Positions 31,963 through 54,178 of a stretch of 64,000 nucleotides of DNA are shown one piece after another. The position numbers and the translations under genes are program-made. Origin of the DNA: an uncultured Conexibacteraceae bacterium (GTDB lineage Bacteria > Actinomycetota > Thermoleophilia > Solirubrobacterales > Solirubrobacteraceae); assembly GCA_963832195.1 (NCBI GenBank), contig CAWHTH010000006.1, forward strand, positions 331,974-395,973. The letters run 5' to 3'. Under the pieces are notes generated by a model. It saw only the letters and a program-made list of their open reading frames with translations, was not told the DNA's origin and made no database searches. Every line of letters starts with the position of its first letter. The stretch's first letter is position 1.

Positions 31963-31989
31963 GGGCGGGGCACCCTATAGGGTGTCCAC

Positions 31990-33264
31990 GTGGCCCAGCG
32001 TGCCGCCGTCGATGTCTTCGAGAAGGCCCGCACGCACGAGCGCGCCGAGATCCTGCGCGCCGCCCGCGAGGCCGACGTGGTGCCCTATTTCCGCCTCCTC
32101 GAAGGTCCCGCGCGGCCGGTCGTAGAGATGGAGGGAGCCCAGCGGATCATGCTCGGCTCCAACAACTACCTCGGGCTCACGGCCGACGAGCGCGTCATCA
32201 ACGGCGCCCGCGAGGCGCTCGAGCGCTACGGCACCGGCCTGACCGGCTCGCGGCTCCTGAACGGCACGATCCCGCTGCACCTCGAGCTCGAGGCCGAGAT
32301 CGCGGACTGGATGGGCACCGAGGACGCGATCGTGTTCACGACGGGCCACCAGGCCAACATCGGGACGCTCGGCACGATCCTGCAGCCGGGCGACACCGTC
32401 GTGGCGGACTCCGGCGACCACGCCTCGATCCTCGATGGCTGCCTGCTGTCGCGCGCAAAGCTGCGGCCGTTCCGCCACAACCGGCTCGACAAGCTCGAGC
32501 GGGCGCTGGAGCGCGCTGCGGACGACGGCGGCGGCGTCCTCGTCGTCGTCGACGGCGTCTTCTCGATGGAGGGGGACATCGCCCCGCTGCGCGAGATCGC
32601 CGATCTGGCTCAGGCCCACGGCGCGCGGCTGATGGTCGACGAGGCTCACGGCGCCGGGGTCCTCGGCGCGCGCGGGGCCGGGACCGCCGAGCTGCTCCGG
32701 GTCGAGGACCGCGTCGACCTGCGGATGGGGACGTTCTCGAAGTCCCTGGCCTCGTGTGGAGGCTTCATCGCCGGCAGCGCCGAGGTGGTCGAGTTCCTAC
32801 GGATCCAGTCGCGCGCGTTCCTATTCACCGCCGCGGCCGTGCCGGCCGCCGTCGGCGCAGCGCTGGCGGCGCTGCGCGTAGTCCGCAGCGACGACGGCCG
32901 CGAGCTGATGGCGCGCGTGCTCGACAACGCGCGCTACCTGCGCGATGGCCTCGAGGAGCGTGGCTTCGCGGTGGTGGCACCGCAGCCGATCGGCGACGGC
33001 GGCGACATCGTCACGCCGATCGTGCCCGCGCTCGTCGGCGACGACTGGAAGGCCGCCCTGCTCTGGAAGGCGCTCTACGACGAGGGCGTCTTCGTCAACA
33101 CCGCGCTGCACCCCGCGGTGCCGCCCGGCGGGGCGCTTCTCCGCACCAGCGTCATGGCGACCCACGACCGCGCAACGCTCGAGGAGGCGCTCGATCGCTT
33201 CGCGTCGGTGAAGGCCCGCTTCGAGTCGGAGCACGGACCGTTGCCGGCTCCCGGTGCACACTGA
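31990..33264 (+). CDS. Alpha-oxoamine synthase, serine-palmitoyltransferase-like (PLP-dependent)
   Basis: 424 aa. YFRLLEG, MLGSNNYLGLT, YGTGLTGSRLLNGT, DSGDHASILDG, VVVDGVFSMEGDIAPL, MVDEAHGAGVLG, GTFSKSLASCGGF (PLP Lys). The GTFSKS and YF..E features fit SPT/ALAS-type enzymes better than BioF/KBL. Confidence 0.85.
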   Translation: MAQRAAVDVFEKARTHERAEILRAAREADVVPYFRLLEGPARPVVEMEGAQRIMLGSNNYLGLTADERVINGAREALERYGTGLTGSRLLNGTIPLHLELEAEIADWMGTEDAIVFTTGHQANIGTLGTILQPGDTVVADSGDHASILDGCLLSRAKLRPFRHNRLDKLERALERAADDGGGVLVVVDGVFSMEGDIAPLREIADLAQAHGARLMVDEAHGAGVLGARGAGTAELLRVEDRVDLRMGTFSKSLASCGGFIAGSAEVVEFLRIQSRAFLFTAAAVPAAVGAALAALRVVRSDDGRELMARVLDNARYLRDGLEERGFAVVAPQPIGDGGDIVTPIVPALVGDDWKAALLWKALYDEGVFVNTALHPAVPPGGALLRTSVMATHDRATLEEALDRFASVKARFESEHGPLPAPGAH

Positions 33265-42807: not shown

Positions 42808-43416
42808 ATGCTCGCGCGCGTGAAGCTGACCGGGAGGAGCACGGCCTTTGCGCTCGTCGCCGTCCTCGGTTCGACGACGCTCGTCGCGGGCTGCGGCGGC
42901 GGCGATCGGCAGGACAAGGACGAGAAGGCCGGCAGCTACGAGGTCGAGGTCGTCGACGCGAAGTTCCCGGCCAAGCAGACGCTCGCCAAACAGGTCGAGT
43001 TCTCGGTCCAGGTCAAGAACACCGGCCGCGAGGACGTCCCGAACATCGCCGTCACGCTCGACTCGTTCGCGGCCCGCTCCGAGCAGCCCGGCCTCGCCGA
43101 CCCGGAGCGCCCGGTCTGGATCATCGACTCGGGCCCGCGCGGCGGCACGACCGCTTACACGAACACATGGGCACTCGGCGCCCTGCGCCCGGGCGAGATG
43201 CAGACGTTCACCTGGCGCGTGACCGCGGTCCGTCCCGGCACGCACAAGGTCAACTGGCAGGTCGCAGCCGGCCTCGACGGCAAGGCCAAGGCCGTTCCAG
43301 CCTCGGGCAGCGAGCTCGAAGGCTCTTTCACGGTCGACATCGCGCGCGAGCCGGCGCAATCGCGCGTCGATCCGGACACGGGCGACGTCATCCGCGAGGG
43401 CGACGAGTCCTCGTAG
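42808..43416 (+). CDS. Lipoprotein with an Ig-like/CARDB-like beta domain
   Basis: In-frame ATG at 42808. Lipobox LVAGC. FSVQVKNTGREDVPNIAVTL is reminiscent of CARDB-type domains. Confidence 0.6.
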   Translation: MLARVKLTGRSTAFALVAVLGSTTLVAGCGGGDRQDKDEKAGSYEVEVVDAKFPAKQTLAKQVEFSVQVKNTGREDVPNIAVTLDSFAARSEQPGLADPERPVWIIDSGPRGGTTAYTNTWALGALRPGEMQTFTWRVTAVRPGTHKVNWQVAAGLDGKAKAVPASGSELEGSFTVDIAREPAQSRVDPDTGDVIREGDESS

Positions 43417-43431
43417 CCCTCGGGCCGCCGG

Positions 43432-43734
43432 TCAGGCCGTAGCGGCGCCGGGATCGATGTGGTCGATCCGGTCGATGAGGCGCATGATCGCGTCGATCAC
43501 CGCCCGGCGCTCCTCACGCTCTTCGATCATCTCGACGCGGCGCTCGGCGCGCCACTGCCGCATCTCGGCGTGGTCCTCGTCGATGCGTGCGAGCGCCTTC
43601 TCGATGACCGCGTCGTTTCGCGCGAACGCGCGCTCCATCCGGTCGATCACACGGCTGTTCTCGCGGATGATCCGATCGCTGCGCGCGGCGAATGCCTGAA
43701 TGAAGGCGCGGAGATCGTCTTCGCGATCGGCCAT
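43432..43734 (-). CDS. Hypothetical coiled-coil protein (100 aa)
   Basis: In-frame ATG at 43734: MADREDDLRAFIQAFAARSDRIIRENSRVIDRMERAF.. Helical, charged, non-shadow composition. Confidence 0.4.
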   Translation of the reverse strand: MADREDDLRAFIQAFAARSDRIIRENSRVIDRMERAFARNDAVIEKALARIDEDHAEMRQWRAERRVEMIEEREERRAVIDAIMRLIDRIDHIDPGAATA

Positions 43735-43822
43735 TACCGCCGATTTTCGCAGGCGGACTGCGACGGAACCACCCCAACTCGCGCGTAGACTCGCGCCGAG
43801 GAAATGCGCATCAGGCTGCTGG

Positions 43823-44101
43823 GAGGGCAGCTGCGCGGCCCACTGCGTCGAGTCGATCGCCGCCGTGAGCTGCACCGGCGACGCGGCGCCCGCAGCTGCC
43901 GAGCTGCTCTCCGCCGCGGAGCGCATCCGCGAGGACCTCGGCTTCGACTCGACGGTGCCGCCCGAGCGCATCGTCAAGGACCGAGCTCACGCCGCTGCGG
44001 CGGCCGCGCTCGACGAGAACGAGCTGGCGGCCGCGCTGGAGCGCGGCCGCCAGTTGACCTTCGATCAGGCCGTCGCCCGTGCGCTGGAGGCGACGGCCTG
44101 A
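43823..44101 (+). pseudogene. C-terminal remnant of a STAND/TPR regulator paralogous to 44862..47480
   Basis: EGSCAAHCVESIAAVSCTGDAAPAAAELLSAAERIREDLG...ERGRQLTFDQAVARALE aligns by eye with the last ~85 aa of the 890-aa protein (NRNCGAHCLETTAGLVARMGEAEAGSELLGTAERLREVLG...ERGRSLAFEAAMARALE). No upstream ATPase part is present. Confidence 0.5.
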
Positions 44102-44132
44102 CCTGCTGGGCCGACGGCGCGTCACGAAGGCC

Positions 44133-44783
44133 TCAGGCCGCTGTGACCGCCCAGTCGCCGAGCACCTGCCAGATACCCGCGACGGACGAGTGGGTCACGA
44201 CATTGAAGCCGTGCCGGGTGGTGCTCACCACGTTCGGGGCCCCTTCGGAGCCTCCCGTCCCGCTGTGTGTAACGCACAGGTGCCCGGGCGACGGCGTGAG
44301 CAAGCCTGCCGTAGTCTGGCAGTCGGGATGGGTTTCGCCGATCCGCACGACGTGAGCCTGGGGCACCGTCGCAAGAGTGAAGACAAACGAAACCATGTCC
44401 AGGTCGAAGTCGTTCCCGGCGCCCACGTTGGCCCACCGCCCGCGCAGCGTCTTCCCGCTTGGCAGCACGTCGGGGAACTCCCCTGCCGGGCCCGGTGCCC
44501 CAGTGTCGCCCGTCGGTCCCCGGGGACCAGTCGGCCCAGTAGGTCCGGGGCGGCCTCGCTGGTCCCAGTTCAGCGCCGTCTCGTTCGAGCTGCACTTGCG
44601 CACCGCATCGTCGATCACGCGCAGCGTGCCGCCCGACTTGGTGTAACACGCGTGAATCACGCCGTCTGAACCCGGGATCGCGGCGACCGCGAGCCCGGCG
44701 GCGGCAACAGCGGCCGCCACCGACGCGGCGATCACCGGCGACGACAGCCGACGGCCGGAACGGATGATGCGGGTAAAGAACAT
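44133..44783 (-). CDS. Secreted protein with a conserved N-module and collagen-like G-X-Y repeats
   Basis: 216 aa. Signal/anchor, IPGSDGVIHACYTKSGGTLRVIDDAVRKCSSNETALNWDQRG, then GRPGPTGPTGPRGPTGDTGAPGPAG. Paralog of 52156..52647. Confidence 0.75.
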   Translation of the reverse strand: MFFTRIIRSGRRLSSPVIAASVAAAVAAAGLAVAAIPGSDGVIHACYTKSGGTLRVIDDAVRKCSSNETALNWDQRGRPGPTGPTGPRGPTGDTGAPGPAGEFPDVLPSGKTLRGRWANVGAGNDFDLDMVSFVFTLATVPQAHVVRIGETHPDCQTTAGLLTPSPGHLCVTHSGTGGSEGAPNVVSTTRHGFNVVTHSSVAGIWQVLGDWAVTAA

Positions 44784-44829
44784 TTCGGTCCTCCCTCGAG
44801 GTGAAGTAGTGGCACCTGCTTCACCCGAA

Positions 44830-44856
44830 GACGCGCGCCCGCGGCGGTTTTCTCCC
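44830..44856 (-). promoter_or_regulatory. ECF-type promoter motif copy P3: GGGAGAAA-N15-CGTC
   Basis: Minus strand reads GGGAGAAA ACCGCCGCGGGCGCG CGTC. It lies 46 nt upstream of the ATG at 44783. Confidence 0.6.
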
Positions 44857-44861
44857 GCAGA

Positions 44862-47480
44862 TCAGGAGATGTGCTCGAGCGCTCGCGCCATCGCCGCTTC
44901 GAACGCGAGCGACCGCCCGCGCTCACGCGCGGCTTCGCGGGTGTCGTCGTCGAGGCTCGCGCCAACCATGGCCTCGCTTCGCGCACGAACGAACGCCTCG
45001 TAAGCCGGCGCCGCGCCGCCGAGAACCTCGCGCAGGCGCTCGGCGGTGCCGAGGAGCTCTGAGCCCGCTTCGGCTTCGCCCATTCGGGCGACCAGGCCGG
45101 CCGTGGTCTCCAGGCAATGCGCACCGCAGTTGCGGTTGTCCATCTGGTGGTAGAGAGGAAGCGCCTTGGCGAGGCATTCGCGGGCCACGTGGAGATCGCC
45201 GCGGGCCTCCGCGCCGATGGCGCGGAACTCCCAGATGTGGGCCTGCCAGTTCGGCGCGGGGATCTGATCGATCAGCACGGCCGCTTCCTCCAACATGGCC
45301 CATGCGCGGTCGACGTCGCGGTCGACCCACCACAGCGCGCACAGCGCCACCGTGAGGCCGACCATCAGAGGATCCTCGGATCGCCGAGCCACCTCGATCC
45401 CGTCCTCGATCAGGCCGCTGAGCTCAGCCTCCGTGATTCCCCCGCCGACGTGAACGCCCCAGGCATTGATCACCAACCAGAGATATGCAGCGGCCTGCGC
45501 GACGGTGTCGCCGGTCGCGCGCGCGATCTCGAGGCTCGCCGTGCAAAGCCGGGTGCCCTCCTCCCATACTCCGCTCTGGAAGCACAACCGCCCCGCCGCG
45601 AGCAGCCCCGCGGCGCGAACCGCATCTGAAACGTCGCCGGGGGCGGCGAGCAACCGCTCCATCATCGGCTGTGCTTCGCGCATGTGCCCGCGCCAGAGCC
45701 AGAACCCGGCGACGCTGATTGATGCGATCTTCAGGCCGGCCTCGGGATTGCCGGAGGCCAGCGACCACTCGAGCGCCGCGCGGGTGTTGTCGAGCTCGGT
45801 CTCGAGCAGGTCGAGGCAGCGCGCCTGCGCCAGACCGCTGAGTCCCGGCTCGACCTGTTGCGCGAAGGCGACCATCCAGTCCAAATGCGCGTCGCGGACC
45901 TCCTTCGCGCGCCCCGTTTCTTGGAGGCGATCGCGGCCGTACTGGCGCAGCGTTTCGAGCAACCGGTAGCGGACTACACCGTCGCGCGCCTCGTCGCGAA
46001 CCACGAGCGACTTGTCCACGAGCGTGCCGAGCCCCGCGAGGACCTCCCGCCGCTCCATCCCGCACGAAGCGCAGACGTCGGCCGCCGCATCCACCGTCCA
46101 GCCGCCGACGAAGACGGAGAGGCTGTCGAACAGGGTGCGGTGTCGGTCGTCGAGCAGGTCATAGCTCCACGCGACGGTGGCCTCGAGCGTGCGCTGGCGC
46201 GGCAGCGCCGTGCGTGCGCCGCCAGTCAGCAGCGTGAAGCGATCGTCGAGGTGAGCCGCCAGGTCGGCGAGCGAGAAGGAAGCTGTACGCGCGGCGGCGA
46301 GCTCGATCGCCAGCGGCAGGCCGTCGAGCCGCCGACACAGTTGCGTCACGAGCGGTTCCGACTCGCCCTCGAAATCGACACCTGGCTGCGCGTCGCGCGC
46401 ACGGTCGGTGAATAGCGCGACGGCGTCCGGGTCGGGGAGCGATGCGGTGCGGAACACGACCTCCCCGGGAATTCCGAGCGGCTCCCTGCTCGTGGCGAGG
46501 ACACGCAGGTTCGCCGCCTCCTGGAGCAGATCCTGCGCCACCCGTGCGGACTCGTCCACGAGGTGCTCGCAGTTGTCGACGACCAGGAGGAGCATCTCCG
46601 CGTCGCGCACGCGCGCGAGCACGTCGTCGCGCAGCGGGGTGTCCGGACGCTCGCGGACCCCGAGCGCCTGTGCGAAGGCCTTGATCACCAGGCCCGGATC
46701 GGCGACCGGGGCAAGGTCGACCAGCCAGGCGCCGCCTGACAGGTCCTCTGCACGGCGAGCCGCAAGCTCGAGCGCGAGGCGCGTCTTCCCCGTGCCACCG
46801 GCGCCGGTGAGAGTGACGAGACGCGCGTCGGTGAGGAGCGCGCCGATCTCCTCGAGCTCATGCTCGCGGCCTACGAACGTCGTCAGCTGGAGCGGCAGGT
46901 TGGTGCTCGGCGCGTCCGCCCTGCGCCCGGGGGTCGTGGGAGGTCCGGCGAGCAACGGGAAGGGGTTCTCGGGCTCCGGGGAATAGGTGCAGAACGCGCC
47001 TGTCTTCACAGCGCGCTCGAGATGGACACCGAGCTGCGGCAGCTCGTCCGCGATGTGGCGGACCGCCTTGCGGATCGCGCGGCCGACGCTCTGCCGCGCG
47101 CGCTCGGCCTGAGAGGCGGCCGGCCGGTCACGACCACCGAGTCCCACGGCCTGCGCCAGCTCGCGGCCGATGAAGTCGAGCTCCTCTTGGGCGCGCGCGG
47201 CACGCTCGTCGTCGTTCCAGGTCCGCGCCTCCTCCAGCTCTTCGCGCAGCCCCTGTACACGTGCGCGGTACTCGGACTTGGCCTGCTCGTCCAGCACCGG
47301 CGCCGCGCTCTCGGCCACCGTCGCCTCGGGAGCCGCGAGCTCGAGCACGTGCAGCTCCGCGCCGGGGTGCGCCAGCAGCGTCGCCAGATATTCGAGTCCC
47401 TTCGACGACTTCAGGCGCACCTCGGCCCCGCCGTGGCACACAGCCCAGTAGTCGCCCTCCCGCCACAGCCCTTGGTCCAT
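44862..47480 (-). CDS. STAND (NB-ARC-like) NTPase with a C-terminal TPR array and an N-terminal domain of unknown function
   Basis: P-loop LTGAGGTGKTRLALE, LLVVDNCEHL, GLPLAIELAA, then a TPR-like region. N-terminus has GDYWAVCHGGAEVRLKSSKGLEYLATLLAHPG. The ATG at 47480 has a GGGAGG RBS. The listed alternative start is 47534. Confidence 0.85.
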   Translation of the reverse strand: MDQGLWREGDYWAVCHGGAEVRLKSSKGLEYLATLLAHPGAELHVLELAAPEATVAESAAPVLDEQAKSEYRARVQGLREELEEARTWNDDERAARAQEELDFIGRELAQAVGLGGRDRPAASQAERARQSVGRAIRKAVRHIADELPQLGVHLERAVKTGAFCTYSPEPENPFPLLAGPPTTPGRRADAPSTNLPLQLTTFVGREHELEEIGALLTDARLVTLTGAGGTGKTRLALELAARRAEDLSGGAWLVDLAPVADPGLVIKAFAQALGVRERPDTPLRDDVLARVRDAEMLLLVVDNCEHLVDESARVAQDLLQEAANLRVLATSREPLGIPGEVVFRTASLPDPDAVALFTDRARDAQPGVDFEGESEPLVTQLCRRLDGLPLAIELAAARTASFSLADLAAHLDDRFTLLTGGARTALPRQRTLEATVAWSYDLLDDRHRTLFDSLSVFVGGWTVDAAADVCASCGMERREVLAGLGTLVDKSLVVRDEARDGVVRYRLLETLRQYGRDRLQETGRAKEVRDAHLDWMVAFAQQVEPGLSGLAQARCLDLLETELDNTRAALEWSLASGNPEAGLKIASISVAGFWLWRGHMREAQPMMERLLAAPGDVSDAVRAAGLLAAGRLCFQSGVWEEGTRLCTASLEIARATGDTVAQAAAYLWLVINAWGVHVGGGITEAELSGLIEDGIEVARRSEDPLMVGLTVALCALWWVDRDVDRAWAMLEEAAVLIDQIPAPNWQAHIWEFRAIGAEARGDLHVARECLAKALPLYHQMDNRNCGAHCLETTAGLVARMGEAEAGSELLGTAERLREVLGGAAPAYEAFVRARSEAMVGASLDDDTREAARERGRSLAFEAAMARALEHIS

Positions 47481-47565
47481 CGGTCCTCCCTCGCGGCCAA
47501 GTCTATGTCTGCAAGTCGTGAATTCCGCGTGCACATCGTGACGGCCGAATTCGCGCCTTCAGGGC

Positions 47566-48384
47566 ATGACGACGACAACCACAAACGACATCTACGCGAC
47601 GATCACCACCACCCCGCCCGAGGTCCAGGAGCTGATCGCGGGAGTGATGGAGCTACGCGCGGCACAGCCGGCCCAGCGAGAGATGCTCGAGTCCTACTTG
47701 GCCGAGCTTCCCCTGCCGGACGGCGCCCGCGTGCTGGAAGTGGGCTGCGGTACGGGCGCGGTCGCGCGCGTCATTGCCGCGGACCCGCGCGTCGGCGAGG
47801 TTGTCGGCGTCGATCCCTGCGCGCGGTTCGTCGAGCTTGCCCGCGAGCGCGTGAACGGCGGCGCGCCACAGTCGTTCCTCGTGGCAGACGGGCGTGTGCT
47901 CCCCGATCCCGACGAGACGTACGACGCCGTGGTCCTCCACACGGTTCTCTGCCACACGCCGCAGCCCGAGGAGCTCCTAGCCGAAGCGCACCGCGTCCTG
48001 CGCCCGGGCGGCTCGCTCGCCGTCTTCGACAACGACCCGGTCACCGCCACCGTCGCCAACGGGCCGCACGACCCGCTCCAGGTCTGCATCGACGCCGCCC
48101 TGGACGCGCTCGTGCACGACCCGTACCTCGCGCGCAAGCTGACGGGCCTAGTCCGCGCGGCTGGATTCGAGCCGGCGCAACAGCGCAGCCACGGCTACGC
48201 CGAGAGCGGCGAGTCGGCCTACCTGCTGTCCGTCTTGGACCGCGGGGCGGACGCGCTCGCCGCCACGGGCCGCATCGGGCCTGGTCTCGCCGAGGCACTC
48301 AAGGCCGAAGCGCGCGAGCGCATCGAGCAGGGGACGTTCGCCGCGCAGGCGGCCTACGCGAGCGTCATCGGCCGCAAGCGCTGA
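47566..48384 (+). CDS. Class I SAM-dependent methyltransferase
   Basis: 272 aa. Motif I VLEVGCGTGAVARV, LRPGGSLAVFD. Confidence 0.8.
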   Translation: MTTTTTNDIYATITTTPPEVQELIAGVMELRAAQPAQREMLESYLAELPLPDGARVLEVGCGTGAVARVIAADPRVGEVVGVDPCARFVELARERVNGGAPQSFLVADGRVLPDPDETYDAVVLHTVLCHTPQPEELLAEAHRVLRPGGSLAVFDNDPVTATVANGPHDPLQVCIDAALDALVHDPYLARKLTGLVRAAGFEPAQQRSHGYAESGESAYLLSVLDRGADALAATGRIGPGLAEALKAEARERIEQGTFAAQAAYASVIGRKR

Positions 48385-48486
48385 GCGCGGCGACAACCGG
48401 TTTCACGCATGGCTCGCGCTCGCCTCGCGGTGGCTTAGCGGTCGCCGCAGAGGCTGCGGAGCAGTCGATCTGGGAGGAGGCAGGAC

Positions 48487-49020
48487 ATGAGCACAGTTGC
48501 GATCCGCGTCCCGCTGCGAACGGCGCCGGGACGACGGCTACGGCTCGACGAGGAGGTCGTCGGGACCCACTTCGGGAGGCTCTTTCGGGCAGCGCTCGCG
48601 CTCACCGGCTCGCGGCCGGACGCCGAGGACCTCGTGCAGGACACGTTCGCACGGGTGCTGGCACGGCCGCGCTTTGTGCGCGGCGAGTCCGACCTGGGCT
48701 ATCTGCTTCAGGTGCTGCGCAACACATGCGTGTCGCGCCACCGCGCGGCATTGTGCCGCCCGCAGACAACCTGCTGGCCCGACGACGGCGAATACGCCGC
48801 AACCGACCGCTGCTACGACCCGCAGCTCGCGGCCGAGCGCCTCGACATCGCCGCCGCGCTGGCCAAGCTGCCGGCACCGATGCGTGACGCGGTCGTCGCG
48901 GTCGACGTGATGGACCTCGACTACCGCAGCGCCGCAAAGGCACTCAACGTCAGCGAAGGCACGATCCGCAGCCGCGTCTGGCGCGGCCGCGAACGGCTTG
49001 CGGGGCTGATCGAGCGTTGA
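48487..49020 (+). CDS. ECF-family RNA polymerase sigma factor
   Basis: 177 aa. Region 2 (AEDLVQDTFARVL..YLLQVLRN) and region 4 HTH (PMRDAVVAVDVMDLDYRSAAKALNVSEGTIRSRVWRGRERL). Confidence 0.88.
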   Translation: MSTVAIRVPLRTAPGRRLRLDEEVVGTHFGRLFRAALALTGSRPDAEDLVQDTFARVLARPRFVRGESDLGYLLQVLRNTCVSRHRAALCRPQTTCWPDDGEYAATDRCYDPQLAAERLDIAAALAKLPAPMRDAVVAVDVMDLDYRSAAKALNVSEGTIRSRVWRGRERLAGLIER

Positions 49021-49023
49021 AGG

Positions 49024-49050
49024 CGGAGAAAAACATGCGCGCTGCGCGTC
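49024..49050 (+). promoter_or_regulatory. ECF-type promoter motif copy P4: CGGAGAAA-N15-CGTC
   Basis: CGGAGAAA AACATGCGCGCTGCG CGTC starts 4 nt after the sigma-factor stop codon. Confidence 0.5.
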
Positions 49051-49141
49051 GTCAGACACAAGACCCAAGCCTGGCCGCGAGCGGCGCGGCGGGCCGCAAG
49101 GCCCGCGGTCGGTCCTCCCAGACACTCGCGGCCTGATCAAC

Positions 49142-49179
49142 GGCCGGGCGCGGGCACAGCGACCCGCCCGCGCCCGGCC
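49142..49179 (+). terminator. Strong GC hairpin (13-bp stem GGCCGGGCGCGGG/CCCGCGCCCGGCC, 12-nt loop) without a U-tract
   Basis: Read directly. Flanked by TGATCA/GATCA. Lies between promoter motif P4 and the 49297 ORF. It could be an I-shaped terminator, an attenuator or a protein site. Confidence 0.3.
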
Positions 49180-49296
49180 TCGATCAGCGCGCGTCTGCGC
49201 CGGTTCCAGCAGCTCATGAGTTCACGCCGGTGTCGCGGAGCTTTCACGGATGCGGGCGAGCCTCTCCCCACCCGACAACCACTCGACGGAGGGGAC

Positions 49297-49743
49297 ATGA
49301 ACACCATCCACACAGGGCGTAAGCGGTCATCTTGCGTCGCCGCAACCGCTGCGCTCGCGGCGTGCTTGTCGCTCACCACCGCCGGGACCGGTGTGCGGCA
49401 GCGCTACGAGCGGTATGCGTCGACGCTGGCGGATCGTCGTGCGAACCCCGTCGCGGCCGCGGCTGCGGCAGCGCACGAGGTGCCCAGCTGCCTGTTCCCC
49501 GACAACCAGGAGGCATTCGACGCCGCGCTCGCCGAGTCGCTCGCCGCGGTGCCGGACGGTCGGGCGGAGGTCGCCGGCGTGGCGCTCGGGCGGGCCGTCC
49601 TCTTCCGCCGTGGCGCGAGTGTGAATCGGACGCGAAACCCACCTCGCCGCGCGCGGGCTCAGCGCGCACGGACCGTCCGGGTCGTCGCGCGCACGCGGCG
49701 CCCGGCGGCGTCGGTGACCGAGCCGGAGATGCGGACCCGGTAG
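49297..49743 (+). pseudogene. Truncated N-terminal fragment of a PAP2/vanadium-haloperoxidase-like secreted protein
   Basis: GGAGGGG RBS and the ATG at 49297. Signal peptide. Then AAAAAAHEVPSCLFPDNQEAFDAALAESLAAVPDGRAEVAGVALGRAV, which resembles the N-terminal helices of that family. The reading frame degenerates where it overlaps the convergent 49659..52055 gene. Confidence 0.35.
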
Positions 49744-52055
49744 CGCTGGCCGCGGCGGATGCGCGGGCTTCGCATCGTGACGACGCGGCCGGTGAAATGC
49801 CGGGTCACGCGGGCGTCGATCGCGCTGCCGCGACCATCGCCGACGGTCACGGAACGAGGCCCGACCCCCGTCACGAACTTAGAGAAACGAATCTCGACAC
49901 GGCCGCTACGCGCACGGATGCTGCGGACGCGGGGAGCGCCCCGGCCGGCGGGGCCGGGGCGGACGACGATGAGCACCTGTGCAGTGCTCGACGCACCGGA
50001 CGCGTCGCGCGCCGTCAGCGTCACGGTGTGCGTGCCGACCGACGCCGTAGCCCACTGGATCCCTCCGCCCGAGGCGATGACACCGTCCCGGCTCGAGGTC
50101 CACGTCAGATTGTCGCCAGCACTGGAGCCGTCTTCGGAGTCGAACGCGGCGCCCTGGAGGTTGATGGGATTGCCGGCAGTCGCGACCAGTGCCGTTCGCC
50201 CGGGGGCGGGTGCAACGGGCACCTCGATCGCAACATGCGGGGCCTTGTTCGGCACGGGGAAGACCCGGTCGGATTCATCGACCGCCGTATGGAACCCGTC
50301 GCTCGCCAATACCCGGAACCGCCCCTTGTCCGTGCCTTCGAGATTCGCCATGTCGAGTGGATACGCGAGGTCGGGAATGTCCGAATCGATCGTCCGCCAC
50401 GTCGTTCCGCCGTCCTGGCTGTACTGGAGCACGTAGGTGAGCGTGTCGTTGTCACCGTCGACGGCGGTCCAGCTCACGTTGCGGGTGCCGGCCGTTTCGA
50501 GCGGCCTAGGCTCGGGCGGATCGGTCCAGTGCACTGTGGGGGCGTTCGCGGAGGCCGAGCGCGACGCCAGCACTGTGTCGCCGCGTCGCAGCTCGATACG
50601 AACGGCCCCTTCGACGATCGGGAGAATGACCCTGAAGTGATCTGTCCCGTCCGAATGGGCGATCTGGGGCGAGAACTCGCGCGTCACGAGGGCATTCCCG
50701 GAGCCGTCGAGCACGACGATCGAGTAAGGACCCGTCGTCGGTAGCGAGTCGCGCCCCTTCGCAACGGACTGATAGACCGTGGTCAGCTCTCCTCCCGTCG
50801 AGCTCACCACACCGGCGACCAGCAGACGCGGGCCGGGCGGGGGCTCAGGATCCGGGCTTGCCTGTGATGCCGATGCCAGGCCGTTAGCGGGACGGTGCTC
50901 CGCGTGCGTGCGCAGATAGTCGAGAATTTCCACGTAGCGCGCGCGCGAAATCCAATGGTCACCGTTCACCGTGTTCATGAAGATCGTCGCGCGATCGGGG
51001 ATCGCCCGGACGGCGTATGTGTCGAATCCCTTGATTCCGTCCTCCATCAGGCCGTCGTCGTGGCCGCCCAGGATCCCGACCATGCCGATGTTGTGTCCCA
51101 GCTCATGCGCGGGGGCGACCCCATCGCGTATTGCCACGAAGTCCTCGCCACGAATCTCCCCCCGGCCACCGATGGTCTCGCCGCCGTTGTTCACCCACGA
51201 CACAGTCGACGGTAAAACCCCCACGAACGACGTCTGGCCGGTGTATTCGACGACCGGGATGCCGGCGAGCGAGCTATTGGCATCCAGCGCCGCGAGGATC
51301 GACTGCGCATTGTTGGTGTTGCTGCGCAGCGTGCCCCAGAAGTCGCTCATGAGCAGCCGCTCGTCGGCCACCGGCCACAGCGACTTGATCGACGGCAGGA
51401 TCCGCGTCGGGTCGCTGACCGTCACCCCGGTCGGGTTATAGACCACGCGCCAGGGGAGCAGTGTGACTCCGCCGGAGCGCTGGAAGACCACGCGGACGTT
51501 CGCGGTATTCGCGTAGTCGTCGCAGCCCGGGCATTCCGGTAGCCGGAACGTCGCTCCCGACACATTGATCTGTACCTCGAACTGGACGTCGCCACGCTCC
51601 CAGTCGTCCGGGAGGATGAAATTCCACGTCAGGTGTGCGCCGTCGCGGGCGCGCTCACGTAACTGGTCGGTCGTGCCGACGCGCGTCGTCTCGACGTTGA
51701 GTCCTCCGCTGGTCCTTCTGCCCAGGAAGACACCGCTGCGACGCGCCGCCATGGAGGCGTACACCGGACCGACCGTGTTCGTCGTCGCGCCTTCGGCGGC
51801 AGCGGAGATCCGCACAGCCGTCTGCTTGCCCTCGATGAGAGGGACGGCCGTGGAGCCCGTCCCGGGGTAGTCGATGACCGAGCGTACGGTGCTCCGGCGC
51901 GTGTCGTTGTAGATGGCGCGCGGGCCCTGGATGGCCTGAGTGACCTCCACGCTTGTCACGTACAGGTTGAGGCTCTGCGCCGAGCCGACGCTGGGCACGG
52001 CCAGGCCGGCGAGCAGAGCGATGAGAACCGGGATGCGGAGAGCTGAGGGCTTCAT
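49659..52055 (-). CDS. Large secreted HEXXH zinc-metalloprotease-like protein with several Ig-like/PKD-like domains
   Basis: In-frame ATG at 52055 gives the signal peptide MKPSALRIPVLIALLAGLAVPSVGSAQS. HELGHNIG near the middle. C-terminal beta-rich repeats (e.g. VSWTAVDGDNDTLTYVLQYSQDGG, GTHTVTLTARDASG). The upstream part of the listed ORF is shadow sequence. Confidence 0.8.
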   Translation of the reverse strand: MKPSALRIPVLIALLAGLAVPSVGSAQSLNLYVTSVEVTQAIQGPRAIYNDTRRSTVRSVIDYPGTGSTAVPLIEGKQTAVRISAAAEGATTNTVGPVYASMAARRSGVFLGRRTSGGLNVETTRVGTTDQLRERARDGAHLTWNFILPDDWERGDVQFEVQINVSGATFRLPECPGCDDYANTANVRVVFQRSGGVTLLPWRVVYNPTGVTVSDPTRILPSIKSLWPVADERLLMSDFWGTLRSNTNNAQSILAALDANSSLAGIPVVEYTGQTSFVGVLPSTVSWVNNGGETIGGRGEIRGEDFVAIRDGVAPAHELGHNIGMVGILGGHDDGLMEDGIKGFDTYAVRAIPDRATIFMNTVNGDHWISRARYVEILDYLRTHAEHRPANGLASASQASPDPEPPPGPRLLVAGVVSSTGGELTTVYQSVAKGRDSLPTTGPYSIVVLDGSGNALVTREFSPQIAHSDGTDHFRVILPIVEGAVRIELRRGDTVLASRSASANAPTVHWTDPPEPRPLETAGTRNVSWTAVDGDNDTLTYVLQYSQDGGTTWRTIDSDIPDLAYPLDMANLEGTDKGRFRVLASDGFHTAVDESDRVFPVPNKAPHVAIEVPVAPAPGRTALVATAGNPINLQGAAFDSEDGSSAGDNLTWTSSRDGVIASGGGIQWATASVGTHTVTLTARDASGASSTAQVLIVVRPGPAGRGAPRVRSIRARSGRVEIRFSKFVTGVGPRSVTVGDGRGSAIDARVTRHFTGRVVTMRSPRIRRGQRYRVRISGSVTDAAGRRVRATTRTVRAR

Positions 52056-52064
52056 GCCCCCAAT

Positions 52065-52091
52065 GACGCCGCGCGCTTCCGTTTTTCTCCC
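52065..52091 (-). promoter_or_regulatory. ECF-type promoter motif copy P2: GGGAGAAA-N15-CGTC
   Basis: Minus strand reads GGGAGAAA AACGGAAGCGCGCGG CGTC. The CGTC ends 9 nt before the ATG at 52055, implying a leaderless or near-leaderless mRNA. Confidence 0.6.
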
Positions 52092-52118
52092 GGGAGAAAT
52101 CCTCCCGCGCGCGGCGTC
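52092..52118 (+). promoter_or_regulatory. ECF-type promoter motif copy P1: GGGAGAAA-N15-CGTC
   Basis: GGGAGAAA TCCTCCCGCGCGCGG CGTC, 37 nt upstream of the ATG at 52156 (GGGAGG RBS at 52143-52148). Confidence 0.6.
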
Positions 52119-52155
52119 GTCAAGAGCAACCAAGCAACCACTGGGAGGCTCTCTC

Positions 52156-52647
52156 ATGAAGGTCACGACCAGGATCAGTCGCTTCCGGCCCAGCCGCACG
52201 ACGGCAGTCGCCGTCGCGGCACTCGTCGTCGCCACGGGCGGCATCGCGTTCGCGACGATCCCCGCGTCCGACGGCGTCATCCATGCCTGCTTCTTGAAGT
52301 CGGGCGGCACGCTGCGCGTCATCGACAGCGCGACCGGCAAGTGCAAGTCGACCGAGCAGTCGCTCAGCTGGAACCAGCGGGGCATTCCCGGAGCGCCGGG
52401 CGGCCTGTCGGGCTATCAGCGCGTGTCCGAACGCTTCGCCAACACGCAGCGAGGCGTCGCCCGCTGCCCCGAGGGCAAGATGGCGGTGGGCGGTGGGTAC
52501 AGCGTCACCCTTCCCACCTCGACGCCAGGGCTCCGTAAGAGCCTGTCAGGGCAGGACGGGAACGGCATCCAGCTCTGGCTCGTGGAGTTCGACGAGCCCG
52601 TCGAAGATTTTGCCGTCGAGGTGATCTGCGCGAACGGGAGCGAGTAG
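52156..52647 (+). CDS. Secreted protein sharing the N-module of 44133..44783
   Basis: In-frame ATG at 52156. MKVTTRISRF..VVATGGIAFATIPASDGVIHACFLKSGGTLRVIDSATGKCKSTEQSLSWNQRGIPGAPG, then an unrelated Cys-containing C-domain. Confidence 0.75.
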   Translation: MKVTTRISRFRPSRTTAVAVAALVVATGGIAFATIPASDGVIHACFLKSGGTLRVIDSATGKCKSTEQSLSWNQRGIPGAPGGLSGYQRVSERFANTQRGVARCPEGKMAVGGGYSVTLPTSTPGLRKSLSGQDGNGIQLWLVEFDEPVEDFAVEVICANGSE

Positions 52648-52684
52648 CAACTCGAGGAGAGCGCCTTCGGGCGCTCTCCCCGCA

Positions 52685-53794
52685 TCACCGCGGCAGGCGC
52701 GGCGCGATGATCCGGTACGCCTTGAGCCCGAGCCCGAGCCGCTCGCGGTCCTCGGACAGCATCGGGTCCAGGCCGCTGAGCTCCTTCACCCGCTCGAGCC
52801 GGTAGGCGACCGTGTGGCGGTGGGCGTAGATCGCCGCCGCCGTCGCGTTCATGTTGCAGTCGTTCTCCAGGTACGAGGAGAGCGTGTCCACCAAAGACGT
52901 CCGGTACTGGTCGTCGTAGCGGACGATCGCCGCAACGGTGTCCTCGAAGAACGAGCGGATCTCCTCGGGGTGCGACGCCAGCACGCGGAACAGGAGCCGA
53001 TAGGTCCCGGTCCCGATGTCCTGCGCGGAGATCGGCGCACCCGACACGGTGAGCACGTCCAAAACGAGCTCGGCCTCCTGCACCGCCCGCCCGAAGCCCG
53101 CCGGGTCGGCGTGGAACGTCGACAGCCCGACCGTCCCGTGACGCTGCAGCCGTGCGGCCAGCTGCCCCGCCCGCTGCAGCGTCTTCTCGGGCGCATCGTC
53201 ACCACCGGTCGCCGGCAGCAGCGCGTACACGCGCCCGTCGAGGTCCTGCGCCAGCGCGCCCGTCCATTCGCCGGCGATCGTCGCCACCACGTGGCGCGGG
53301 CGGTCGGTGGTCAGCGCCGCGCACATCACGACCGCGCCCCGCGACAAGTCACAGCCCAGCCGCGCCGCGCGGCGCATGAGCTCGCGCGGGTCGATGTCGG
53401 TCTTGGCCCGCAGCTCCTCGAGCAGCGAGCCGCGGAGGTTCTGCTCGACCTCCTCCTTGGCCTCCGTGATCGCCAACTCGGTCAGCGAGGCGACCGCCGC
53501 GAGGTGCAACACCTCCAGCGCGTCGGGCCCGCCCTTGCCGAGCAGGACGACCTCGCCGACCTCGTCGTCGCCGGAGAGGATCGGCTCGCGCGCGACCGCG
53601 CCGTCGGTGTCGGGCTCGAGCCCGAGCCGCGGCACGGAGATCGCGACGGGTGCGCCAGCCACCTCAGCTGCCAGCTCTGCGACCCGGCCCAGCCCGTCCC
53701 CGCCCAGCACGGCGTCCACCATTCGCATGTGGACGTCGCGCAGGCGGGCGACGAGCGGGGCGGCGTCGTCGCTGCGGTTCGCCGCCCCGCCCAT
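52685..53794 (-). CDS. PucR/CdaR-family transcriptional regulator
   Basis: 369 aa. C-terminal PucR HTH LSSYLENDCNMNATAAAIYAHRHTVAYRLERVKELSGLDP. Starts 9 nt after the glnK stop. Confidence 0.85.
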   Translation of the reverse strand: MGGAANRSDDAAPLVARLRDVHMRMVDAVLGGDGLGRVAELAAEVAGAPVAISVPRLGLEPDTDGAVAREPILSGDDEVGEVVLLGKGGPDALEVLHLAAVASLTELAITEAKEEVEQNLRGSLLEELRAKTDIDPRELMRRAARLGCDLSRGAVVMCAALTTDRPRHVVATIAGEWTGALAQDLDGRVYALLPATGGDDAPEKTLQRAGQLAARLQRHGTVGLSTFHADPAGFGRAVQEAELVLDVLTVSGAPISAQDIGTGTYRLLFRVLASHPEEIRSFFEDTVAAIVRYDDQYRTSLVDTLSSYLENDCNMNATAAAIYAHRHTVAYRLERVKELSGLDPMLSEDRERLGLGLKAYRIIAPRLPR

Positions 53795-53803
53795 TGCCAG
53801 TAG

Positions 53804-54178
53804 CTAGGACGTGGCCGCCGCCGCGGCGTCAGGGTGGGCTTGGAGGATCTCCTCCCCCGCCTCACCCGTTCGCACCCGGTAGGCCGCCTCGACCGGCAGC
53901 ACGAACACCTTGCCGTCGCCGACGGCTCCCGTGCGGGCGTGCTTGAGCACCGTGTCCACGATCGTCTGCACGTCCTCGCTGGCGACGACGCACTCGATCT
54001 TGACCTTGGGGCGAAGGTAGTTGGTCACCTCCGCCCCGCGGTAGCGCTCGGTGATGCCCTTCTGCCGGCCCGAGCCCTTCACCTCGCTGATCGACAGCGA
54101 GGGAAAGCCCAGGTCGAGCAGGTCGGTCCGGATCGGCTCGAACGACTCGTGCCGGATATAGGCCACGACCATCTTCAT
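53804..54178 (-). CDS. glnK: P-II nitrogen regulatory protein (amt-linked, GlnK type)
   Basis: 124 aa. MKMVVAYIR, T-loop GRQKGITERYRGAE, DGKVFVLPVE. ATGA overlap with the amt stop. Confidence 0.92.
   Translation of the reverse strand: MKMVVAYIRHESFEPIRTDLLDLGFPSLSISEVKGSGRQKGITERYRGAEVTNYLRPKVKIECVVASEDVQTIVDTVLKHARTGAVGDGKVFVLPVEAAYRVRTGEAGEEILQAHPDAAAAATS

What the first reader, a model, noticed from the sequence alone, without database searches (positions are those of the whole stretch)
44830..52118. Four copies of a fixed-spacing ECF-type promoter motif (G/C)GGAGAAA-N15-CGTC clustered around an orphan ECF sigma gene
Seen directly, four copies. (1) 44856-44830 (minus): GGGAGAAA-ACCGCCGCGGGCGCG-CGTC, 46 nt upstream of the 44783 start. 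(2) 49024-49050 (plus): CGGAGAAA-AACATGCGCGCTGCG-CGTC, 4 nt after the sigma stop. (3) 52091-52065 (minus): GGGAGAAA-AACGGAAGCGCGCGG-CGTC, 9 nt upstream of the 52055 start. (4) 52092-52118 (plus): GGGAGAAA-TCCTCCCGCGCGCGG-CGTC, 37 nt upstream of the 52156 start. The spacer is exactly 15 nt in all four. By eye I found no other GGAGAAA-N15-CGTC in the 64 kb. A conserved -35-like block plus a CGTC -10-like block at fixed spacing is the known architecture of ECF sigma promoters. The only sigma gene in the window (48487-49020) sits in the middle of these sites. Inference: a compact local ECF regulon driving secreted proteins. No anti-sigma gene (no zf-HC2 or TM protein directly downstream) is recognisable, so how the sigma factor is controlled is open.
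Basis: partly seen in the sequence, partly recalled or inferred. Interest (0 to 1): 0.78.

Follow-up and report, generated by a model that had tools for sequence, protein, structure and literature searches.

The report
Local ECF sigma factor promoter set
Four identical-format promoter sites surround a lone alternative sigma factor gene in a soil actinobacterium and most likely let it switch on a few neighbouring secreted-protein genes, which is a well-supported but fairly ordinary kind of bacterial gene switch.

Summary
GGAGAAA-N15-CGTC occurs exactly four times in 64 kb (0.05 expected), with no one-mismatch copies and no other spacing. All four sites are intergenic and point at genes.

The ECF-promoter reading is supported by new comparative evidence. 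The sigma's own family (Solirubrobacterales homologues, 45-57% identity) carries GGAAGGA-N15-CGTC right next to its sigma genes. The block sizes, the strict 15-nt spacer, the G before CGTC and the T two bases after it are all the same. Family members also show back-to-back divergent pairs, and start codons 7-12 nt after CGTC (leaderless), as at window site 3.

The sigma-2 region and the -10 block are conserved. The sigma-4 recognition helix (EGTIRSRVW versus family EATITTRLH) and the -35 block both differ.

Targets are a putative secreted HExxH metallopeptidase, two paralogous small secreted proteins, and a truncated PAP2-like gene remnant. The sigma has no anti-sigma partner (many relatives do) and no copy of the motif upstream of itself.

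No orthologous locus exists for footprinting, and transcription starts are unmapped.

Verdict: a new member of a known kind, a local ECF regulon. Side leads are a unique four-cysteine cluster in the sigma linker, and a metagenome contig that is a circular permutation of the whole 8.9-kb module.

The parts
44830..44856 (-). Site 1 (P-sec216): GGGAGAAA-N15-CGTC. It starts 5 nt after the stop codon of the STAND NTPase gene, and its CGTC lies 46 nt before the ATG at 44783.
44133..44783 (-). sec216: a 216-aa secreted protein with a signal peptide, a conserved N-domain with two Cys, and collagen-like Gly-X-Y repeats. It is a paralogue of sec163.
44862..47480 (-). STAND-type NTPase with TPR-like repeats, 872-890 aa. 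The likely start is the ATG at 47480, which has a GGGAGGA Shine-Dalgarno sequence. It is transcribed divergently from the methyltransferase-sigma pair and is a candidate upstream regulator (inference only).
47566..48384 (+). SAM-dependent methyltransferase, 102 nt upstream of the sigma gene on the same strand. It may be co-transcribed with sigma.
48487..49020 (+). ECF sigma factor, 177 aa, with sigma-2 and sigma-4 domains only. Its sigma-4 helix (VSEGTIRSRVWRGRER) is unique. It has four Cys (C81, C90, C96, C109) in the end of region 2.4 and the linker. There is no anti-sigma partner and no motif upstream.
49024..49050 (+). Site 2: CGGAGAAA-N15-CGTC, 4 nt after the sigma stop codon. Relatives have their anti-sigma promoter in the equivalent position.
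49142..49179 (.). Perfect 14-bp GC stem (GGCCGGGCGCGGGC...GCCCGCGCCCGGCC) flanked by CTGATC/GATCAG. It looks like a terminator but has no T-run, and it lies inside the leader of site 2.
49297..49743 (+). Truncated ORF with a lipoprotein-type signal peptide plus about 75 residues that match the N-terminal part of PAP2/vanadium-haloperoxidase-like proteins of about 430 aa. It is cut off by the convergent big798 gene.
49659..52055 (-). big798: a 798-aa secreted protein with a signal peptide, an invariant HExxH motif (H317/E318/H321) and Ig-like/PKD domains. It is probably a zinc metallopeptidase. Only 6 homologues were found among 5.8 billion proteins.
52065..52091 (-). Site 3 (P-big798): GGGAGAAA-N15-CGTC with the ATG 9 nt after CGTC, so the transcript is predicted to be leaderless. 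It forms a back-to-back pair with site 4.
52092..52118 (+). Site 4 (P-sec163): GGGAGAAA-N15-CGTC, 37 nt before the ATG at 52156. The two -35 blocks abut and form the palindrome TTTCTCCC|GGGAGAAA.
52156..52647 (+). sec163: a 163-aa secreted protein and paralogue of sec216 (about 69% identity in the N-domain). Its C-terminal domain is beta-rich with no significant PDB match.
43775..43781 (.). Left copy of the 7-nt direct repeat CAACTCG, at the boundary of the 8.9-kb segment that contig L001 holds in circularly permuted form.
52648..52654 (.). Right copy of CAACTCG. In L001, window position 52654 is joined to 43779.

Best explanation
The four GGGAGAAA-N15-CGTC elements are promoters of the ECF (group 4) sigma type. 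They are most likely recognised by the ECF sigma encoded at 48487-49020, which sits among them.

Proposed mechanism. RNA polymerase carrying this sigma reads GGAGA(AA) with sigma-4 as the -35 element and (G)CGTC with sigma-2 as the -10 element. Transcription would start about 9-10 nt after CGTC. Three sites would drive intact genes for exported proteins:
- site 3: big798, a putative HExxH metallopeptidase, on a leaderless mRNA;
- sites 1 and 4: the paralogous small secreted proteins sec216 and sec163, with leaders of about 30-40 nt.

Site 2 lies just after the sigma stop codon, where relatives keep the promoter of their anti-sigma gene. Here it faces a hairpin-rich 246-nt leader and a truncated gene, so it may be vestigial.

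The sigma is a divergent member of a large Solirubrobacterales family whose usual promoter is GGAAGGA-N15-CGTC. It has kept the -10 specificity, changed the -35 specificity along with its sigma-4 helix, lost the membrane anti-sigma partner, and has no promoter of its own type upstream. Its activity is therefore probably set by how much of it is made, perhaps under the neighbouring STAND NTPase, and not by release from an anti-sigma factor.

Shown: the motif statistics, the family motif and its geometry, the protein differences, and the absence of an anti-sigma gene.
Inferred: that this sigma reads these sites, where transcription starts, and how the sigma is controlled.
For: Motif statistics:
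- 4 exact sites against 0.05 expected, no degenerate copies, strict N15 spacing.
- All sites are intergenic and oriented towards ORFs with signal peptides.
- Conservation is limited to the two blocks plus C at spacer position 3, G before CGTC and T at +2.

The sigma:
- It has r2 and r4 domains only and passes TIGR02937.
- It is the only ECF sigma in the window.

Family evidence:
- GGAAGGA-N15-CGTC has 9 exact hits in 591 kb of family loci (0.8 expected from Markov simulations), all next to the sigma gene. There are 0 hits in 728 kb of unrelated loci.
- With <=1 mismatch, 15 of 38 hits lie in the ~5% of sequence around sigma, and 14 of those 15 are co-oriented with it.
- Near the family sigma genes the spacer is 15 nt in 13 of 13 cases.
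- The same G-CGTC-(C/T)-T extension is present. Divergent back-to-back pairs occur in L017 and L027. A start codon lies 7-12 nt after CGTC at 9 or more family sites, matching window site 3.

Co-variation of protein and promoter:
- The sigma-2 motifs are near-identical between the window's sigma and the family.
- The sigma-4 helix is EGTIRSRVWRGR in the window, against EAT(I/V)TTRL(H/Y/F)RAR in members that have GGAAGGA promoters. The window's helix is unique among 120 homologues.

Literature:
- CGTC is a typical ECF -10 element (PMC3426412).
- About 48% of ECF sigmas are predicted to control <=3 promoters, often within 2 kb. Leaders of 20-40 nt and leaderless starts are expected (PMC7776599).
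Against: - No transcription start, expression or binding data exist.
- Linking the motif to this sigma rests on proximity and on one case of protein/promoter co-variation.
- The sigma has no close orthologue (at most 57% identity).
- No homologous target locus carries the motif. Homologues of sec163 lack it, and so does the only full-length homologue of big798. Phylogenetic footprinting was therefore impossible.
- Only 64 kb of the genome could be scanned, so 'compact' and 'local' are not proven.
- Genomes of this order hold many ECF paralogues, and one encoded elsewhere could read these sites.
- There is no motif upstream of the sigma gene, which is atypical for ECF sigmas (PMC7826278).
- Site 2 has no intact target.
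Confidence: 0.7

Rival explanations
1. The sites are genuine ECF-type promoters, but they are read by a different ECF sigma paralogue encoded elsewhere in the genome. The adjacent sigma would then be a bystander, or would control other genes.
For: The family is very large, with more than 6000 hits at E<=1e-20. Single MAGs carry several members; L031 and L032 come from one MAG. The local sigma has no copy of the motif upstream of itself. Only 64 kb of a contig longer than 1 Mb could be searched.
Against: This is the only ECF sigma in the window, and it lies in the middle of a 7.3-kb cluster that holds all four sites. In relatives the family motif sits directly at the cognate sigma gene. The window's sigma has a unique sigma-4 helix, which matches a unique -35 variant. 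The sigma and all four sites co-occur on the separately assembled 8.9-kb contig L001.
Confidence: 0.17
2. The motif is the operator of a DNA-binding regulator and not a promoter. Candidates are the neighbouring PucR-family protein or the STAND protein. The TTTCTCCC|GGGAGAAA palindrome at 52084-52099 would be a dimer binding site.
For: Sites 3 and 4 together form a 54-nt imperfect palindrome with perfect 8-nt inner arms and 12-nt outer arms. A PucR HTH regulator and a STAND protein are both encoded nearby.
Against: Sites 1 and 2 are single and not palindromic. The element is an asymmetric two-block unit with a strict 15-nt gap, and it always points at the downstream gene. The homologous family element sits at promoter distance from start codons, including leaderless distances. 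The palindrome is explained simply by two abutting divergent promoters, an arrangement also seen in L017 and L027 with a different gap between the pair.
Confidence: 0.06
3. The copies are non-functional: chance matches, or leftovers of local duplications during assembly of the module.
For: The module shows signs of rearrangement: a truncated PAP2-like gene, a duplicated fragment of the STAND C-terminus, paralogous target genes, and a circularly permuted contig. Sites 3 and 4 share 8 spacer bases (GCGCGCGG) next to CGTC.
Against: Chance is excluded: 0.05 expected, and 0 of 100 shuffles gave 4. Spacers and flanks are otherwise unrelated while both blocks are perfectly kept, which indicates selection on the blocks. 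The same architecture is conserved across many distant relatives.
Confidence: 0.04

Closest known systems
Local ECF sigma regulons as defined by Todor et al. 2020 (PMC7776599)
   Same: A small ECF sigma, a two-block -35/-10 promoter with a fixed spacer, about 3-4 promoters all within about 3.6 kb of the sigma gene, leaders of 20-40 nt or none, and a patchy distribution.
   Different: That study found promoters through autoregulation. Here there is no copy upstream of the sigma gene, and no orthologues exist for footprinting.
The sigma's own Solirubrobacterales ECF family with GGAAGGA-N15-CGTC promoters
   Same: 45-57% protein identity, near-identical sigma-2 motifs, the same promoter geometry (7+15+4), the same G-CGTC-N-T extension, divergent back-to-back promoter pairs, leaderless targets, and a promoter at the 3' end of the sigma gene.
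   Different: The -35 is GGAGAAA and not GGAAGGA. The sigma-4 helix is EGTIRSRVW and not EATITTRLH. There is no anti-sigma gene and no promoter upstream of sigma. Four Cys lie in the linker, where relatives have none.
SCO3450 ECF sigma with a self-contained regulon on Genomic Island 6 of Streptomyces coelicolor (bioRxiv 10.1101/247056)
   Same: An actinobacterial ECF sigma whose predicted or observed regulon is contiguous with it on an accessory segment that relatives lack. That paper proposes the unit is transferable.
   Different: The SCO3450 regulon has about 26 genes, mostly metabolic enzymes, is flanked by two anti-sigma genes and transposases, and was shown by induction experiments. Here there are about 4 promoters for secreted proteins, no anti-sigma gene, no transposase or integrase, and no expression data.
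Orphan ECF sigmas that are not autoregulated: sigma-AntA of the antimycin cluster, and HrpL/ECF32 (cited in PMC7826278; details from my own knowledge)
   Same: No co-encoded anti-sigma, control presumed to act on sigma synthesis, and a few nearby target promoters, including divergent ones.
   Different: There is no sequence relationship. The targets are not a biosynthetic cluster or a secretion system. The C-terminal Ala-Ala degron described for sigma-AntA (from memory) is absent; this protein ends in ...GLIER.
ECF41 promoters, TGTCACA-N16-CGTC (PMC3426412)
   Same: The same CGTC -10 element and the same two-block logic, with a sigma that lacks a separate anti-sigma factor and has very few neighbouring targets.
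   Different: The -35 and spacer differ. ECF41 sigmas carry a regulatory C-terminal extension, and this 177-aa sigma has none.

Membership tests
ECF (group 4) sigma-70 family | Only the sigma-2 and sigma-4 domains, about 170-200 aa, with no region 1.1 or 3 | tested here: met
   Pfam Sigma70_r2 (residues 27-87) and Sigma70_r4_2 (residues 119-171) in a 177-aa protein. TIGR02937 sigma70-ECF scores 55.1 bits against a cutoff of 42.9.
ECF (group 4) sigma-70 family | Assignment to a named ECF subgroup (SigM, SigE, SigH and others) | tested here: not met
   Every subgroup or equivalog model scores far below its cutoff, e.g. SigM 81 against 190 and SigE-fam_strep 81 against 141.6. The ECF Hub group number could not be determined with these tools.
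ECF-type promoter | A two-block -35/-10 element with a fixed spacer and a CGTC-like -10, upstream of and oriented towards genes | tested here: met
   GGAGAAA-N15-CGTC four times, strict spacing, all intergenic and gene-oriented. CGTC is described as the typical ECF -10 (PMC3426412). Blocks of 7 and 5 nt with a spacer of 15-18 nt are used for ECF motif discovery (PMC7776599).
ECF-type promoter | Transcription starts a few bases downstream of the -10 block and depends on the sigma | not testable with these tools
   No transcriptome or biochemical data are available. The only indirect support is the CA dinucleotide at +9/+10 after CGTC in sites 2-4 and the start codons 7-12 nt after CGTC in relatives.
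Canonical ECF module (sigma + co-transcribed anti-sigma, autoregulated) | An anti-sigma gene next to the sigma gene | tested here: not met
   At least 14 of 32 relatives have an overlapping downstream gene with an anti-sigma-like N-terminus, and 13 of those 14 have a transmembrane helix. In the window no such gene or remnant is found; tblastn gives only noise.
Canonical ECF module (sigma + co-transcribed anti-sigma, autoregulated) | The sigma's own promoter motif upstream of the sigma gene or operon | tested here: not met
   There is no window-type or family-type motif upstream of 48487 or 47566, even with 2 mismatches.
Solirubrobacterales GGAAGGA-N15-CGTC sigma family (defined here) | Sequence homology together with shared promoter geometry | tested here: met
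   45-57% identity. The same 7+15+4 geometry and extended positions.
Solirubrobacterales GGAAGGA-N15-CGTC sigma family (defined here) | The same -35 sequence and the same sigma-4 recognition helix | tested here: not met
   The -35 is GGAGAAA against GGAAGGA. The helix is EGTIRSRVWRGR against EATITTRLHRAR and is unique among 120 homologues. This makes it a specificity variant of the family.
Self-contained ECF regulon on a transferable island (SCO3450 type) | The sigma and its targets are contiguous on an accessory segment | tested here: met
   All four sites and the sigma lie within 43779-52654, between housekeeping genes: MlaE permeases on the left, and PucR, Amt and GS-III on the right. The module's genes have few or no homologues in relatives.
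Self-contained ECF regulon on a transferable island (SCO3450 type) | Evidence of mobility (integrase, transposase, att sites, an empty site in relatives) | tested here: inconclusive
   A separate contig is a circular permutation of exactly this segment, joined next to a 7-nt direct repeat. No integrase or transposase was found. GC content is not atypical. The empty-site scan found nothing.

The most novel reading that the evidence does not exclude
The 8.9-kb segment 43779-52654 may be a self-contained regulatory cassette that can be amplified or excised, carrying a sigma factor together with its whole regulon. In this reading the sigma has been naturally rewired to a private -35 sequence (GGAGAAA), which insulates it from its many paralogues. 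It would be controlled not by an anti-sigma factor but by a newly acquired four-cysteine cluster (C81/C90/C96/C109) in its sigma-2/sigma-4 linker, acting as a built-in redox or metal switch.
Probability: 0.1. Interest if true: 0.7.

Novelty: new member of a known kind. Interest (0 to 1): 0.4.

Why it matters
If confirmed, this is a clean natural example of how an ECF sigma family diversifies. The -10 reading stays fixed, while the sigma-4 helix and the -35 element change together, the anti-sigma partner is lost, and a small private regulon of secreted proteins results. This is the 'specificity rewiring' that has so far been shown mainly by engineering.

The work also defines the promoter of an uncharacterised Solirubrobacterales ECF family (GGAAGGA-N15-CGTC, often leaderless). 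That should help regulon prediction in these abundant but poorly studied soil actinobacteria.

It does not reveal a new regulatory principle.

Tried and rejected
1. Small-RNA idea. The site-2 transcript contains GGTCGGTCCTCCCAGA, which is complementary to the ribosome-binding regions of sec216, the STAND gene (11 nt) and sigma (10 nt). Complementarities of 9-16 nt are abundant by chance in this 70% GC window, so I dropped it.

2. Rfam scan of 43000-54000 at E<=1: no match.

3. Sigma-70 promoter and terminator scan: 0 promoters and 1 weak terminator, no better than shuffles.

4. Window motif in sigma-homologue loci: absent, and there is no synteny with the target genes.

5. Footprinting upstream of sec163 homologues (about 40% identity, 11 loci): no motif.

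6. The only full-length big798 homologue (47% identity, L095): no sigma gene and no motif.

7. Metagenome scans for the double-promoter palindrome and for an empty site lacking the module: nothing found.

8. Look-ups of the flanking PucR and 100-aa proteins: not on record.

9. Literature search for the GGAGAAA motif together with ECF: only irrelevant primer hits.

10. Structures. The sec163 model (pLDDT 74) has no significant PDB match, best E 0.16. The big798 model is too poor in the catalytic region (pLDDT below 50 for residues 192-406), so I ran no fold search on it. A PDB sequence search with big798 gave only weak Ig/PKD-like hits.

11. Simple k-mer enumeration for a family motif was swamped by GC-rich background. 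A search for canonical AAC-type -35 elements found little. The family motif was found by reading the upstream regions and then quantified.


Full report
OBSERVATION

Dinucleotide-preserving shuffles give 0.05 on average and never four.

The set is discrete. One mismatch adds no site. Two mismatches add 8 sites where about 20 are expected. No other spacer length from 11 to 19 nt occurs, apart from the trivial CGTCGTC reading of two of the same sites.

Alignment of the four sites with flanks shows conservation only in the two blocks plus three further invariant positions: GGAGAAA-NN-C-N11-G-CGTC-N-T. Spacers and flanks are otherwise unrelated. This is therefore not a duplicated stretch of DNA but four independent copies of a two-block signal.

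GENE CONTEXT

The window is about 70% GC, so I called genes from third-position GC and from ORF translations. The source is a Solirubrobacterales bacterium (Thermoleophilia), judging from the best sigma homologues.

The local gene order is:
- sec216 (44783..44133, minus strand)
- site 1
- a STAND-type NTPase of about 880 aa (minus strand)
- a SAM methyltransferase (47566-48384, plus strand)
- the sigma gene (48487-49020, plus strand)
- site 2
- a 246-nt leader with a perfect 14-bp GC hairpin
- a short ORF (49297-49743, plus strand)
- big798 (52055..49659, minus strand)
- sites 3 and 4, back to back
- sec163 (52156-52647, plus strand)

The flanking genes are housekeeping ones: MlaE permeases on the left, and a PucR regulator, an ammonium transporter and glutamine synthetase III on the right.

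The distances from CGTC to the start codons are 46, 246, 9 and 37 nt. All four downstream ORFs begin with signal or lipoprotein-type peptides.

THE SIGMA FACTOR

The sigma is 177 aa and has only the Sigma70_r2 and Sigma70_r4_2 domains. It passes the generic ECF model TIGR02937 but no subgroup model. A profile built from 120 homologues finds no second ECF sigma in any of the six frames of the window.

THE TARGET GENES

- big798 has an HExxH motif that is invariant in all of its homologues, with consensus AHELGHNxGxxH. It also has Ig-like/PKD domains. It is probably a secreted zinc metallopeptidase. It is extremely rare: 6 homologues among 5.8 billion proteins.
- sec216 and sec163 are paralogues. 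They belong to a small family of secreted proteins with a two-cysteine N-domain followed by collagen-like repeats. The predicted fold of sec163 has no significant match in the PDB.
- The ORF after site 2 matches only the N-terminal part of PAP2/vanadium-haloperoxidase-like proteins of about 430 aa. It is cut off by the convergent big798 gene, so it is a gene remnant.

DIRECT COMPARATIVE TESTS THAT FAILED

The sigma has no close orthologue. Its hits plateau at about 57% identity within a very large family. The 33 family loci I fetched have neither the window motif nor any of the target genes nearby. Homologues of sec163, and the one full-length homologue of big798, have no such motif upstream. 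Two metagenome scans also found nothing. Classical phylogenetic footprinting was therefore impossible.

THE KEY RESULT: THE FAMILY'S OWN PROMOTER

Reading the upstream regions of the family's sigma genes revealed a recurrent element, GGAAGGA-N15-CGTC.

- It has 9 exact hits in 591 kb of family loci, against 0.8 expected from Markov simulations. There are none in 728 kb of unrelated loci.
- With one mismatch allowed, 15 of 38 hits fall in the roughly 5% of sequence around the sigma gene, and 14 of those 15 point the same way as sigma.
- Near the sigma genes the spacer is 15 nt in 13 of 13 cases and never anything else.

Block sizes and spacing are therefore the same as in the window's motif. 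The extended positions agree too: G before GGA, G before CGTC, and T two bases after CGTC.

The family element appears in two places. One is just upstream of the sigma gene, including back-to-back divergent pairs in L017 and L027 that resemble window sites 3 and 4. The other is inside the last 20-48 nt of the sigma gene, ahead of the downstream anti-sigma-like gene. That second position corresponds to window site 2, which lies 4 nt after the stop codon.

At nine or more family sites a start codon follows CGTC by 7-12 nt. Examples are L002/L003 CGTC-ATGACTGAG-ATG and L007 CGTC-CTTATCAGC-ATG. Window site 3 has the same layout, CGTC-ATTGGGGGC-ATG. This supports a leaderless transcript for big798 and a start about 10 nt after CGTC. 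Sites 2, 3 and 4 all have CA at positions +9/+10.

PROTEIN AND PROMOTER VARY TOGETHER

The sigma-2 motifs (DAEDLVQDT...YLL.VLRNT) are almost invariant between the window's sigma and the family, and so is the -10 block.

Family members with GGAAGGA promoters share the sigma-4 helix EAT(I/V)TTRL(H/Y/F)RAR. The window's sigma has EGTIRSRVWRGR, which is unique among 120 homologues. Its -35 block is GGAGAAA.

This is a single case of co-variation, but it goes in the direction expected if this sigma reads these sites.

HOW THIS FITS WHAT IS KNOWN

- CGTC is described as the typical ECF -10 element (PMC3426412).
- ECF motif discovery uses a 7-nt and a 5-nt block separated by 15-18 nt (PMC7776599).
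- About 48% of ECF sigmas are predicted to control three or fewer promoters, often within 2 kb, with leaders of 20-40 nt or none (PMC7776599).
- ECF sigmas usually autoregulate and are co-encoded with their regulators, but groups that are not autoregulated and orphan sigmas are also known (PMC7826278).
- A Streptomyces genomic island carrying an ECF sigma with its contiguous regulon has been described (bioRxiv 10.1101/247056).

The finding is therefore a new member of a known kind.

WHAT IS ATYPICAL

- At least 14 of 32 relatives have a downstream single-pass anti-sigma-like gene. The window has neither the gene nor a remnant of it.
- No copy of either motif lies upstream of the sigma gene or its possible operon.

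Control of the sigma is therefore open. Transcriptional control is the simplest guess, for example by the divergently encoded STAND NTPase. That is inference only.

RIVAL EXPLANATIONS

- Another ECF paralogue elsewhere in the genome could read these sites. This cannot be excluded with only 64 kb in hand.
- An operator for a dimeric regulator is unlikely, because sites 1 and 2 are not palindromic and the element is an oriented two-block unit.
- Chance, or neutral leftovers of duplication, are excluded by the statistics and by block-only conservation.

SIDE OBSERVATIONS

(a) A separately assembled 8.9-kb metagenome contig (L001) is a circular permutation of window 43779-52654. That segment contains exactly the sigma, all four sites and all the targets. 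The contig joins 52654 to 43779 next to a 7-nt direct repeat, CAACTCG. Tandem duplication, an excised circle and an assembly artefact cannot be told apart here.

(b) The sigma has four cysteines (C81, C90, C96, C109) in the end of region 2.4 and the linker. In those columns, 116 of 119 homologues have none, and C90 replaces an arginine conserved in 113 of 119.

(c) The module shows rearrangement scars: the truncated PAP2-like gene, and a 45%-identical copy of the STAND C-terminus at 43829-44089.

VERDICT

I put the probability that these are ECF-type promoters at about 0.85, and the probability that the adjacent sigma reads them at about 0.7.

The result is solid and tidy but not surprising to a specialist, so I score interest at 0.4. 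The most novel reading still open is a mobile, self-insulated sigma-plus-regulon cassette with a built-in cysteine switch. I give that a probability of about 0.1.

Noticed in passing
window 43779-52654; L001 1-8889: ENA metagenome contig ERZ25039586:contig_2097 (8889 bp) is a circular permutation of this window segment. L001 1-3334 matches window 49321-52654 at 100% identity, and L001 3335-8889 matches window 43779-49321 at 99.5%. Position 52654 is joined to 43779, next to the 7-nt direct repeat CAACTCG (43775-43781 and 52648-52654). The segment holds the sigma, all four motif sites and all the targets. This could be a tandem duplication, an excised circle or an assembly artefact. In L001 the STAND gene is split into ORFs of 601 and 266 aa.
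   Followed up: partly
window 48727-48813 (sigma residues 81-109): The sigma has four cysteines (C81, C90, C96, C109) clustered in the end of region 2.4 and the sigma-2/sigma-4 linker. In those columns, 116 of 119 nearest homologues have no Cys, and none has more than two Cys in the whole protein. C90 replaces an Arg conserved in 113 of 119. This may be an intrinsic redox or metal switch in a sigma that lacks an anti-sigma factor.
   Followed up: partly
window 49297-49743 (+): The ORF downstream of site 2 is a truncated remnant. It has a lipoprotein-type signal peptide plus about 75 residues that match the N-terminal part of PAP2/vanadium-haloperoxidase-like proteins of about 430 aa. It overlaps the 3' end of the convergent big798 gene by about 85 nt.
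   Followed up: yes
window 43829-44089 (+): A short ORF encodes a 45%-identical copy of the C-terminal ~86 residues (802-887) of the STAND NTPase. It lies in inverted orientation on the other side of sec216 and looks like a scar of a local duplication or rearrangement.
   Followed up: no
window 44784-44802 (-) and 47481-47497 (-): The translation-start regions of sec216 and the STAND NTPase share an identical 14-nt stretch, CGAGGGAGGACCGA, just before their ATGs. That is longer than a Shine-Dalgarno sequence alone would explain.
   Followed up: no
L005, L008, L010, L012, L018 (about 40-60 nt upstream of the sigma match start): A subgroup of sigma homologues with the sigma-4 helix EGTIMSRLHRGR lacks the GGAAGGA motif. 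Instead it shares a conserved upstream element, (A/T)TTTGTGAGACTGG. This may be a different promoter type within the same family.
   Followed up: no
L024 7956 (-), L025 7958 (-), L026 7558 (-), L007 13285 (-): About 2-3 kb from the family sigma genes there are further sites with variant -35 blocks (GGAAGCA, GGAAGAA) and the full GGCGTCCTT -10 extension. In L025, L026 and L007 they sit 9-12 nt before the ATG, and the L025 and L026 genes encode signal-peptide proteins. These are likely additional leaderless regulon members in relatives.
   Followed up: partly
window 49142-49179 and 52656-52680: Two perfect GC-rich hairpins without T-runs lie at the ends of convergent genes. One has a 14-bp stem and sits after sigma and before big798. 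The other is GGAGAGCGCC-TTCG-GGCGCTCTCC, between sec163 and the PucR gene. They are probably bidirectional terminators lacking a U-tract. The second lies just outside the 8.9-kb segment.
   Followed up: partly
window 33065-33090 (+): A one-mismatch copy of the family-type motif, GGAAGGC-N15-CGTC-TT, lies inside the 3' end of the gene at 31981-33264. It may be chance: the window has 5 one-mismatch hits against 2 expected.
   Followed up: no
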